Positions 1-13,894 of a DNA stretch of 64,000 bases are shown here, one piece after another. A program made the position numbers and the translations under genes. The notes under the pieces are model-generated. The model made no database searches and had not been told where the DNA came from. It saw only the letters and a program-made list of their open reading frames with translations. Each line of letters opens with the position of its first letter. Within the stretch, counting starts at the first letter, position 1. Origin of the DNA: Octopus vulgaris (taxonomy: Eukaryota); assembly GCA_951406725.2 (NCBI GenBank), contig OX597818.1, positions 86,118,001 to 86,182,000 on the forward strand, written 5' to 3'.

Positions 1-81
1 TGTCTGTCCGTCCGTCCGTCCGACCGTTTGTCTGTTTGTCTGTCTGTCTGTCTATCTGTCTGTCTATCTATCTATTTATCC

Positions 82-175: not shown

Positions 176-228
176 AAGTCTCTCTGTCCGTTATTCTTGA
201 TATCTATCCGTGTTTGTGTGTGTGTGTG

Positions 229-10048: not shown

Positions 10049-10438
10049 TAGCAGTATCGCCCGGCGTTGCTCGGGTTTGTAAGGGAAATAACTATATAAG
10101 CATTTTTAGAGAGTTATAGCCCAAAAATAGCAAAAAAAATGCATTAAAAATGGAAAAAAAATGATGGTAACTTTTTTTTTAAATCGTTGACTCATCGTAA
10201 ACATTTTTAGAGAGTTACTTCCCTTATATAATAATAGCGAAAAAATGCATTAAAATGGAAAAAAAAATGATGGTAATTTTTTTTTAAATTGTAGACTCAT
10301 CGTAGACGCGCGCTAATACCCAGAAGGGCTCGATATGAATCACGACTATAAGATACCCGCTTTTGGTTACACTGCACCGCAAAATGTGGGAGTAGTTAGG
10401 AATCTAAATCGTAGGAGACAGACACACAACTTGACTTT

Positions 10439-10445: not shown

Positions 10446-10513
<68 letters not shown>

Positions 10514-10544
10514 GGAGTTAACGCAGGTGTAAACAAGTATTTTT

Positions 10545-10630
10545 ACTTTCGACACATGTTTCGAAAATTCCACTGATACTATTCAAAAGAATAAATGGTA
10601 TAAACAATGCAATCTTCTCTTCGGGAAAGT
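10545..10630 (-). ncRNA. Hammerhead ribozyme-like motif (inverted pLTR copy)
   Basis: Mirror image of 10689-10774. Confidence 0.65.
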
Positions 10631-10650
10631 GAAAAAACGAAACTCGTCAA

Positions 10651-10968
10651 TTTTGCTAAAATGTCTTATTGACGAGTTTCGTTTTTTCACTTTCCCGAAG
10701 AGAAGATTGCATTGTTTATACCATTTATTCTTTTGAATAGTATCAGTGGAATTTTCGAAACATGTGTCGAAAGTAAAAATACTTGTTTACACCTGCGTTA
10801 ACTCCATTTTTTATTCATATTATTCAAAATATTCAACGTAAACACGAAGTTTTAACATTTATAACAAGGAGTTACAACACCTTTACTTGTGAGATTTTTG
10901 CTGCCCTGGTAACTATTTATTTATTTTTCCGTGTTAATTGTTAACAAGGTAAAAATACACTCATCTAT
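10651..10968 (+). repeat. 5' pseudo-LTR
   Basis: Matches 13515-13831 with about 3 substitutions and a 1-nt indel (by eye). Confidence 0.95.
10689..10774 (+). ncRNA. Type-I hammerhead ribozyme-like motif, U4C variant
   Basis: actttc-CCGAAGA-gaagatt...aattttc-GAAAC-atgt-GTC-gaaagt: stem I actttc/gaaagt, long stem II, minimal stem III with palindromic ACATGT; predicted cleavage after 10768. Confidence 0.7.
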
Positions 10969-11020
10969 TTATAATACTTTAATCAGGTTTATTAATAACC
11001 TGCTAACTGAATAGTTACAG
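10949..11020 (+). other. Candidate 72-nt spliceosomal intron in the element's 5' UTR
   Basis: aag|GTAAAA donor, gCTAAC branch point at 11003-11007, ttacAG acceptor 3 nt before the ATG at 11024. Penelope-like elements are known to retain such introns. Confidence 0.55.
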
Positions 11021-11023
11021 CAT

Positions 11024-13352
11024 ATGGAGTTATTGAATATTAACGCATCTCTTAAGGACATTCCTATTCCACCTAAGAATGTTTTCCTTAAACAACTTGT
11101 CAATAAGATTAATTCATTAATCAACCGAATAAGATGGCTTACCTTTTTCTTTGACAAAAATGACACTCAACAACACACTAATGATAAAACATCTGAGTTC
11201 AACAAGTTATTTAAATCTAAAAATAGTCCGCCGCCTAACCCAAGGTTGAAGCAATTTGAAGATGATCTCTGGTCCATTGTGAGAAATGTAAAATTTCAAC
11301 GATCACCACTTAGAAATAAACATCTGAGGTATCTTCGCAACATCACCAAAGAAATCAATTCTATGGATACTATGTTGGTTCAATCTAATAAGACTGGAAA
11401 TATGTACAAACTTTATAAAGACTATTATTTGGAATGACTTAAAAAAGAAATTCAGAAAAAGTATAAAATTGCTGATAAAAGAATACTTAAGAAAGCCAAC
11501 ATTGAGGCTATGAAAATCATGGAGAAATATAACCTACAAATGAAGACAGAACCGCTTGTTCCTCAGCAACTTCGGTTCATTTTGAAGGATCACAAACCAA
11601 ATTTTTTTACTAACCCATCATTAAGGCTTATCTGCCCTTCTAGCTCTGACATCAGTATCCTTAGTAAAAATATACTAGATAAATATATTCCTAATTTAAT
11701 CAAAACATTAAAACTTAGGTTATGGACTAATTAATTTGAAGTAGTTGACTGGTTTAGGTCTATTAACAGTAAGGTGGGTACTAAGTTTATCCAGTTTGAT
11801 ATTTCCAATTTTTATTCGTCTATTAATCCAATAGTACTTAATAAGGCACTTTGGCTTGCTCATAACAAAGCTGGTCTCACCCGAGAAGAAATTAATGTTG
11901 TGTTGGCAGCCAGAAGATCTATTATTAAATTTGATGATAAGTTGTGGGTCCGTAAAGACACACCAGATAGTTTCGATATACCAATGGGAAGTTCTGATTC
12001 AGCACAGATAGCTGATTTGGTCTGTATATATATTCTTTTTGAAATGGCTGAAGAGTTCCCTAACATTTATGGAGGTCTATATCGTGATGATTGTTTACTT
12101 TACCTCCAAAATGTTTCCAACCAAAAGGTACAAAAAGTTAAGAATAGTGTAGTTAATTTTTTCAGTAGAATGGGCTTAAAAATCGTTTTTGATGACGATC
12201 TGACGAAGGCCAACTTTTTAGATATTACGCTTAATTTACACAGGGACTCTTACTTCCCATATCATAAACCGTTGACCAATCTTAAGTACATTAGCAAATT
12301 TAGTAATCATCCTGGAGCAATTACTAAGAATTTAGTTAAGAATATTTCATTTAGATTATCTAAGTTATCTGCTAATGTTGATATTTTCAATAATAACGCT
12401 GAATTCTATAACTCTGCCTTAATCAAAGCAGGTTATACAGAAAAAAATTTTCTACATTGATTCTGCTCAGTCTAATTGTAAATTCAATAATGTAGATAAG
12501 ATTTCTAGTCATAAAAGAATTATTGATAACAAACATAACTTACGCACCGATACAAAGCGAATGAAGGCAGATAACCCTTATTTAATTCCCTATTATCGAT
12601 CTAAAAGTAAATATAACACCTTCAAAAGTAATTACGCTATGAATACTAGTAAAAATATTTGGTTAATAATTCCTTACGGGAGACAAATTAAATCTAATCT
12701 CCCACTGCTGTTTCGTCAAGCTATTGCTAGGAATTTTCCAAACAATTCTAGATATTACTCTATAATTAATTCACATAAGGTTAGGATAGGTTTTTCAAAC
12801 ACAAAAAATCTCTTGCAAATTATATCTTCTCATAATAACAAACTGTTAAATATTAATACATTTACAAATACTAACATTAATTTAGCTAATACCATCCAAC
12901 CCTCTAGAAATATTAATAACAAGGTTATTGTATCTCAAGTCAATTCCAATATAATTAAATTTATGTCAAGTAACTCTAAGATTAAAAATTCTATATACCA
13001 GTGTATAATCAGTACTCGTAATAAAGTACGATTTTACATTGGAAGCACATCGTTAGAGTTATCTAAAAGAATTTCTATCCATTACTCAACATTTAGGGAT
13101 AGAAATAAACGGAATAGTACGGGTCTCAGCAAACTGATTTGGGATTTAAAAGACCACAATGAACAATTTCATTTAGAATGGTTGATCCTCTCAATTTCGA
13201 TACCATATGACAAAGGCAAGAAATTCTGTCTTCTCTGCAATTCTGAGCTATTTTTCATTATTTTTTCTAAAAATACTCTAGTAAACACGGTTATAGAGCG
13301 AGCATACAGATGTAAGCATTGGCAAAAACATACATTTAGTGCATATAAGTAG
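11024..13352 (+). pseudogene. Penelope-like RT + GIY-YIG endonuclease ORF (~775 aa reconstructed), disabled
   Basis: ORFs at 11024, 11510 and 11774 share one frame, separated by TGA (11435) and TAA (11732). One extra A in the A-run at ~12441 shifts to the 12561 frame. Motifs: LKDHKPNF, RLICP, FIQFDISNFYSSI, PMGSSDSA, GLYRDD, FLDITLNL, SNHP; SIYQC..FYIGST, CLLCNSE, RCKH. Confidence 0.93.
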
Positions 13353-13514: not shown

Positions 13515-13826
13515 TTTTGCTAAAATGTCTTATTGACGAGTTTCGTTTTTTCACTTTCCCGAAGAGAAGATTGCATTGTTTATACCATTTATTCTTTGAA
13601 TAGTATCAGTGGAATTTTCGAAACATGTGTCGAAAGTAAAAATACTTGTTTACACCTGCGTTAACTCCATTTTTTATTCATATTATTCAAAATATTTAAC
13701 GTAAACACGAAGTTTCAACCTTTATAACAAGGAGTTACAACACCTTTACTTGTGAGATTTTTGCTGCCCTGGTAACTATTTATTTATTTTTCCGTGTTAA
13801 TTGTTAACAAGGTAAAAATACACTCA

Positions 13827-13831
<5 letters not shown>
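13515..13831 (+). repeat. 3' pseudo-LTR
   Basis: Direct repeat of 10651-10968, ending at (TA)n. Confidence 0.95.
13553..13637 (+). ncRNA. Hammerhead ribozyme-like motif (3' pLTR copy)
   Basis: Same motif as 10689-10774; predicted cleavage after 13631. Confidence 0.7.

Positions 13832-13894
<63 letters not shown>

What the first reader, a model, noticed from the sequence alone, without database searches (positions are those of the whole stretch)
10689..10774. Variant hammerhead ribozyme (CCGAAGA core, ~55-nt stem II, palindromic stem III) in each pLTR
Seen: stem I actttc/gaaagt, core CCGAAGA...GAAAC atgt GTC, and a long interrupted stem II capped by tattc-tttt-gaata. The core is the same in all three copies (10545-10630 minus, 10689-10774, 13553-13637). 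Known: PLE pLTRs carry minimal type-I hammerheads that often work as dimers through a palindromic stem III. Inference: cleavage after 10768 and 13631 would excise a 2863-nt unit RNA holding the whole ORF, which could circularise, and the two sense copies could pair through ACAUGU. The U4C change and the very long stem II are atypical.
Basis: partly seen in the sequence, partly recalled or inferred. Interest (0 to 1): 0.72.

Follow-up and report, generated by a model that had tools for sequence, protein, structure and literature searches.

The report
Long-armed hammerhead ribozyme in jumping gene
This is a hammerhead RNA motif, a likely slow self-cutter of the kind known at the ends of Penelope-type jumping genes, whose unusually long side arm is the norm in thousands of copies in this animal genome and whose altered core letter became fixed in two lineages that kept spreading; cutting itself is untested.

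Summary
The motif is real: three copies at the stated places, in the pLTRs of a Hydra-like Penelope element (PLE) inserted in (TA)n. This copy's ORF is broken.

The long stem II is the norm here: 18,373 long against 1,508 short motifs genome-wide. Stems I, II and the stem III palindrome covary across 47 families. Relatives from metagenomes have stem II of only 10-25 nt.

U4C is derived. It arose once in this lineage (about 500 young copies, one with an open 778-codon ORF) and independently in a 589-nt non-coding tandem repeat. G5 and U4-purine mutants stay scattered. U4C is a known natural variant in viroid-like RNAs.

No evidence of cleavage was found: no pile-up of 5' ends at the cut site, and inserted copies read through it. 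Earlier scan notes saw long stem II on other DNA here. New variant of a known kind.

The parts
10508..10651 (-). Inverted, 5'-truncated second arm of the insertion (144 nt), ending in (TA)n
   Evidence: 100% complementary to 10668-10811; read-through RNA folds into one hairpin of -243.5 kcal/mol
10545..10630 (-). Hammerhead motif, copy in the inverted arm
10651..10973 (+). 5' pLTR (323 nt)
   Evidence: direct repeat of 13515-13836, 5 differences
10689..10774 (+). Type I hammerhead motif: stem I 10689-10694/10769-10774; core CCGAAGA 10695-10701 (U4C at 10696); stem II 10702-10756; GAA 10757-10759; stem III 8-mer ACAUGUGU 10760-10767; C17 at 10768
   Evidence: covariation
10801..10808 (+). ACTCCATT motif just before the first fixed 3' end of insertions (about +52 from the cut site)
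   Evidence: CTCCA/CTCTAT found within 60 nt of the cut in 23 of 47 families; ends at +49..53 and +198..205
11024..13352 (+). Broken RT + GIY-YIG ORF of a Hydra-like PLE: stops at 11435-11437 and 11732-11734, frameshift near 12441
   Evidence: 96-97% identical to the open 778-codon frame in L092
13515..13836 (+). 3' pLTR, followed by (TA)n
13553..13637 (+). Hammerhead motif, 3' copy; C17 at 13631

Best explanation
This is the type I hammerhead motif of a Hydra-like Penelope retroelement, likely a slow, dimer-dependent and probably protein-assisted self-cutter in which U4C is tolerated rather than fatal. Shown: the fold, its covariation across families, the derived origin of U4C and the spread of U4C lineages. 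Inferred mechanism: a lone copy has only a 2-bp stem III and would not cut. Two copies on one transcript would swap stem I strands and pair ACAUGUGU with ACAUGUGU, so each core would cut the other's site and release a 2863-nt unit that could be ligated into a circle holding one inactive motif. Reverse transcription starts about 52 or 205 nt downstream of the cut site, so the template must be uncut or re-ligated RNA; a weak ribozyme is therefore enough. The long three-part stem II is an old trait of many families in this genome and likely serves as a binding or folding platform for the element's protein, not as a loop-loop partner of stem I.
For: 18,373 genome matches with free loop III against 145 control; 98 of the first 100 listed have a self-pairing loop, with 11 different perfect palindromes (counted by eye). 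In 47 families: stem I pairs 1-3 hold in 43, 44, 39; stem II pairs 2-5 in 44, 40, 35, 37; loop III in 47 and 46; shuffles give 0.37-0.73. Alignment fold: 7 of 10 pairs with double changes. U4C clade: 49 of 52 C4 rows, nested in U4 copies and with short branches; includes an open 778-codon ORF between two CCGAAGA motifs. After U4C, 4 of 5 fixed substitutions and one insertion keep the fold, one restoring a perfect ACAUAUGU palindrome. A second U4C fixation in a 589-nt non-coding repeat shows an A-U to G-C double change in stem II between its C4 subfamilies. G5 mutants (95) and U4-purine mutants (21) are scattered over families. Papers: dimer activity low (PMC4209133); protein-assisted cleavage (PMC11167929); U4C keeps viroid infectivity (PMC3088659) or cleavage (PMC9608096).
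Against: No cleavage data. No excess of 5' junctions at the cut site: 2 pattern matches in this lineage, of which one starts exactly at +1; 28 against 22 at a control position in U4 families. With natural flanks stem I has probability 0-0.2, though the median over 47 families is also 0.01. The 4-of-5 compatibility is not significant (p 0.069) and the youngest subfamily loses the outer pair of stem I. Support for the U4C clade is 94/87, below the tool's star. In an Anolis PLE, catalytic mutants did not affect insertion in vitro and no RNA-seq ends lay at the cut site (PMC11167929). Single mutants of the CUGA region were of low activity in a deep scan (PMC9901934). No pseudoknot partner for the stem II bulge was found, and its protein-binding role is untested.
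Confidence: 0.62

Rival explanations
1. U4C switched catalysis off or nearly off. The fold is kept as a structural signal (protein binding, dimerisation of two RNA copies, packaging), and the element transposes from uncut read-through RNA.
For: 44 of 45 own-lineage motifs read through the cut site; no junction pile-up; catalysis dispensable in vitro for an Anolis PLE; U4C said to lower activity considerably; Naiad PLEs spread without canonical hammerheads.
Against: Only U4C, a change known to be tolerated, reached fixation among the positions tested (G5, U4); position 17 changed C to A, staying cleavable. Other core positions were fixed by my patterns, so their variants were not counted.
Confidence: 0.22
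2. The ribozyme cuts, but its job is to give the ORF mRNA a defined uncapped 5' end 255 nt before the AUG for cap-independent translation, not to make a circular template.
For: No AUG between the cut site and 11024 in this copy; type I hammerhead cleavage is needed for cap-independent translation in a chrysovirus 5' UTR (PMC13725137).
Against: The same motif with U4C is kept in a non-coding 589-nt repeat (longest frame 52 codons); L092 has one upstream AUG; no expression data.
Confidence: 0.08
3. The motif is a dead relic in this lineage, and U4C hitchhiked with a successful master copy.
For: The motif gained 6 fixed changes in 86 nt after U4C against 7 in 295 nt of flank (Fisher p 0.08); none hit the core, but under one hit is expected.
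Against: The changes mostly keep or improve pairing; compensatory change inside the second U4C family.
Confidence: 0.08

Closest known systems
Hammerheads of Hydra-clade PLEs (Craig et al. 2021, PMC8557442; passages, section 11 and part 2 of 59 of the supplement read)
   Same: Type I, in the pLTR downstream of the ORF, self-complementary AC..GU stem III of 8-10 nt, element under 3 kb, inserted in (TA)n, inverted 5' arm. The Hydra-1_oBim motif of File S2 matches a sequence listed.
   Different: File S2 Hydra stems II are 3-7 bp with 3-11-nt loops and all cores are CUGA. Here stem II is 55 nt in three segments and the core is CCGA. Only two plant PLE-X motifs in that file have a comparably long stem II region.
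Minimal PLE hammerheads (Cervera and de la Pena 2014, PMC4209133; parts 1-2 of 4 and passages read)
   Same: Dimer-dependent design, palindromic stem III, G10.1-Y11.1, proposed unit excision and circle.
   Different: Helix II there is 6-8 bp; the core variant reported in the parts read is U3-A8, not U4C. Supplement not read.
Poseidon element PAc of Anolis (PMC11167929; passages read)
   Same: Two fixed reverse-transcription start sites downstream of the hammerhead giving a tail; insertion into AT-rich DNA.
   Different: Different clade; hammerhead overlaps the start codon; the two ends here are about 150 nt apart.
CCGA-core hammerheads of viroids and viroid-like RNAs (PMC3088659, PMC9608096, bioRxiv 10.64898/2026.09.16.752053; passages read)
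   Same: Same U4C change in nature.
   Different: Type III in the two papers that state the type, in RNA replicons; here fixed in hundreds of genomic copies of a retroelement.

Membership tests
Type I hammerhead ribozyme | Core C3-U4-G5-A6-N7-G8-A9 / G12-A13-A14 / A15.1-U16.1 / H17 | tested here: inconclusive
   All positions met except U4, which is C; U4C is a reported natural variant
Type I hammerhead ribozyme | Three helices around the core, stem I open, supported by covariation | tested here: met
Type I hammerhead ribozyme | Stem I - stem II tertiary contact or pseudoknot | tested here: not met
   No complementarity above cross-family shuffle; non-canonical contacts cannot be tested here
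Type I hammerhead ribozyme | Site-specific self-cleavage | not testable with these tools
   Only contigs were available
Dimer-type PLE hammerhead | Short self-complementary stem III | tested here: met
   ACAUGUGU, 8 bp with two wobbles, -6.0 kcal/mol; swapped dimer favoured
Dimer-type PLE hammerhead | Located in pLTRs flanking an RT + GIY-YIG ORF | tested here: met
Dimer-type PLE hammerhead | Short stem II (up to about 8 bp plus loop) | tested here: not met
   55 nt here; 10-25 nt in 24 distinct motifs of metagenome relatives
Hydra clade of PLEs | C-terminal GIY-YIG, RWK-like and DKT motifs, CxxC and CxH around E and N, no CCHH | tested here: met
   RIRW(L), SDKTG, YIGST, CLLCNSE..N..CKH in P0002, read by eye against the paper's description
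Hydra clade of PLEs | CxCX5C linker | tested here: not met
   A CNC..CP linker is present in 10 of 11 relatives and absent from P0002
Hydra clade of PLEs | Under 3 kb, inserted in (TA)n | tested here: met
   2863-nt unit; TA runs at both ends
Hydra clade of PLEs | Phylogenetic placement with reference Hydra proteins | not tested
   Reference proteins were not available as tool sequences

The most novel reading that the evidence does not exclude
This genome holds a large, undescribed class of long-armed hammerheads (over 18,000 copies, dozens of families) whose three-part stem II docks the retroelement's own protein; the protein props up the catalytic core, which is why U4C could be fixed twice, and non-coding retrozymes borrow the same arm to recruit the enzyme.
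Probability: 0.2. Interest if true: 0.7.

Novelty: new variant of a known kind. Interest (0 to 1): 0.42.

Why it matters
Whether PLE hammerheads need to cut is open: one in vitro study found cleavage protein-assisted and dispensable for insertion. This family is a natural experiment. Near-identical U4 and C4 versions, a ladder of later changes, an open-ORF member and an independent C4 non-coding repeat sit in one genome and can be compared in one assay. The long stem II also shows that standard descriptors and Rfam models miss most hammerheads of this design in this genome, so counts for such animals are likely too low. The single locus itself is an ordinary broken copy.

Tried and rejected
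Rfam scan: no hammerhead model matched; hits were hairpin artefacts. Sequencing runs: no RNA holder listed; two layings used contigs only and cannot show ends; the 'goes back 2863' joint equals the genomic pLTR and is no evidence of a circle; no splice joint was listed. 5' junction test at the cut site: negative; no control position was run for this lineage. One search required hits to pass +20, so it cannot show absence of ends at the cut; one search was run for that. Pseudoknot screen of the stem II bulge: negative. An alternative register using upstream UUGACGAG as the core was rejected by eye, because 7 nt separate the helix from the next GAAA. CpG decay as the source of all U4 copies was rejected: CUGAGGA and most CUGAAGA copies branch outside the C4 clade, only L165 looks like a reversion. 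Pfam gave no hit for P0002 at E 0.1. The stem II length range of 42-65 nt is conditioned by my patterns. Four junction copies (L045, L050, L068, L090) were dropped from 51 clusters; families are related, so its shuffle p values overstate independence. Lunse et al. 2017 on PLE hammerhead variants is not held; I saw only its summary in a review, and it may cover U4C or long stems.

Full report
Observation. The three motifs are at the stated places. Each reads stem I ACUUUC, core CCGAAGA, a 54-55-nt stem II, GAA, ACAUGUGU, C17, GAAAGU. Stem II folds well alone (z -4.15), the whole motif weakly (z -1.93). Rfam has no matching hammerhead model up to E 5. The copies belong to one insertion: an inverted 144-nt arm (10508-10651), a 5' pLTR (10651-10973), the body and a 3' pLTR (13515-13836), between TA runs. 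Their agreement is therefore not independent conservation.

The element. [quoted passage not shown] A sister copy (L092) has an open 778-codon frame between two CCGAAGA motifs; its unit differs at 71 of 2863 positions. The protein aligns over most of its length with 11 database proteins at 29-39% and shows the RW, DKT, CxxC and CxH marks described for the Hydra clade, but lacks the CxCX5C linker that 10 of the 11 relatives carry. I call it Hydra-like; no tree with reference proteins was built. The genome is a 2.8-Gb animal assembly; a motif published for an octopus Hydra element matches a listed hit, so the host is likely an octopus.

Long stem II. With loop III left free, the pattern with 30-60 nt between the core halves has 18,373 matches (control 145), the pattern with 6-29 nt 1,508 (control 94). 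In the first 100 long matches I counted by eye 72 perfect palindromes of 11 kinds, 26 with wobbles and 2 non-pairing. From 160 motifs in fetched loci I formed 51 clusters and dropped 4 junction copies. In the 47 left, the inner pairs of stems I and II and both loop III pairs hold in 74-100% of families with four to six pair types each, far above shuffles; slid registers give 0.30-0.55 against 0.76-0.83. An alignment fold of 17 families recovers the basal and middle segments with double changes in 7 of 10 pairs, but not stem I or the apex. Some of these families lie beside similar RT or nuclease fragments; most are short truncated copies. In 78 metagenome loci with related proteins, 27 carry a motif and all 24 distinct ones have stem II of 10-25 nt; the published Hydra list is also short. 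The long arm is thus a trait of this genome's elements. Searches for it in print found no description; Lunse et al. 2017 could not be read, and unread supplements may bear on this.

U4C. The CCGA form of the narrower pattern has 627 matches against 6,651 for CUGA; 79 of the first 100 listed are this lineage. Among 877 close copies, the first 100 are 50 CCGAAG, 33 CUGAGG, 8 CUGAAG and 9 others (by eye). A tree of 90 pLTR pieces gives a ladder from CUGAUGA outgroups through CUGAAGA and CUGAGGA to one clade holding 49 of 52 C4 rows (support 94/87), with a CCGAGG copy at its base and one reversion inside. Inside it, C17 became A, loop III became the perfect ACAUAUGU, C11.1 became U (wobble kept), an A-to-U change and an inserted A add a pair at the apex, and the youngest group lost the outer stem I pair. 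This leans towards continued selection but is not significant (p 0.069). G5 mutants (95) and U4-purine mutants (21) are spread over many families without an expanded group. A second search found 647 CCGA matches with other loops (control 121); 68 of the first 100 are a 589-nt non-coding tandem repeat with U4 relatives and a compensatory A-U to G-C change between its C4 subfamilies. U4C is known from viroids and viroid-like RNAs, described as lowering activity but keeping infectivity or as not affecting cleavage, and recurs in new circular RNAs. A deep scan reports low activity for CUGA-region mutants in general. Searches found no report of fixed U4C in a retroelement.

Mechanism. Shown by computation: a monomer gains nothing from stem III (-16.8 against -17.4 kcal/mol without it), while the strand-swapped dimer is -44.1 against -35.1 for two monomers. 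Shown from copies: 76 of 78 aligned pieces end at +49..53 or at +198..205 (the query end; 3 of them run on into the ORF), and 44 of 45 motifs continue past the cut site. So the copied RNA spans the site: uncut, or cut and re-ligated. This fits the two internal start sites shown for an Anolis PLE, where cleavage needed the protein and was not needed for insertion. Inferred: slow, protein-assisted dimer cleavage that trims read-through RNA to a unit and may close it. Against: no excess of 5' ends at the cut site, and stem I is not favoured with flanks in single-strand folding, here or in most families. At this locus a transcript through the inverted arm would bury the upstream motif in 144 bp of duplex, so excision would need a start inside the pLTR.

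Earlier notes of this scan report long stem II hammerheads and two fixed ends in other repeats of this genome; they gave me the idea of the cut-site junction test, which was negative here. Two further look-ups returned nothing.

Verdict. Real, a new variant of a known kind. The locus is an ordinary dead copy; the class-wide long arm and the repeated fixation of U4C are the parts worth a bench test. Interest 0.42.

Noticed in passing
L251-L254 (e.g. L252:800-3235): A young 589-nt non-coding tandem repeat (retrozyme-like) with a long-stem-II hammerhead whose core is fixed as CCGAUGA and whose stem III is ACGUACGU; relatives L125 and L255 have CUGA.
   Followed up: partly
L256-L260: An older family with a GGCC loop in which 10 of the first 100 hits read CCGA; possibly a third U4C lineage, with decayed stems.
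   Followed up: partly
window 57732 (-) and 37629 (-): Two more long-stem-II hammerhead motifs with CUGAAGA cores, truncated pLTR copies of other families; stem I is weak in these copies.
   Followed up: partly
P0002 (L092:2787-5123): The protein lacks the CxCX5C linker proposed to guide microsatellite targeting, yet copies end in (TA)n; it also has an insertion of about 35-40 residues after the RT thumb region relative to most relatives.
   Followed up: no
window 11003-11023 +: CTAAC followed by TTACAG just before the ATG looks like a branch point and splice acceptor (motifs recalled); no spliced joint was listed in contigs.
   Followed up: partly
window 10052-10420: A different repeat with a 105-nt internal duplication lies between TA runs just left of the insertion; Helitron-like end by recall, not tested.
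   Followed up: no
L175:2163-2215: A short-stem CCGAAGA hammerhead motif upstream of a Hydra-like ORF in a metagenome contig; it differs from the motif at that element's 3' end.
   Followed up: partly
G000:C1, e.g. 21143774-21144159: A common short-stem hammerhead repeat with 353-nt spacing and another with 545-nt spacing make up much of the short class.
   Followed up: no
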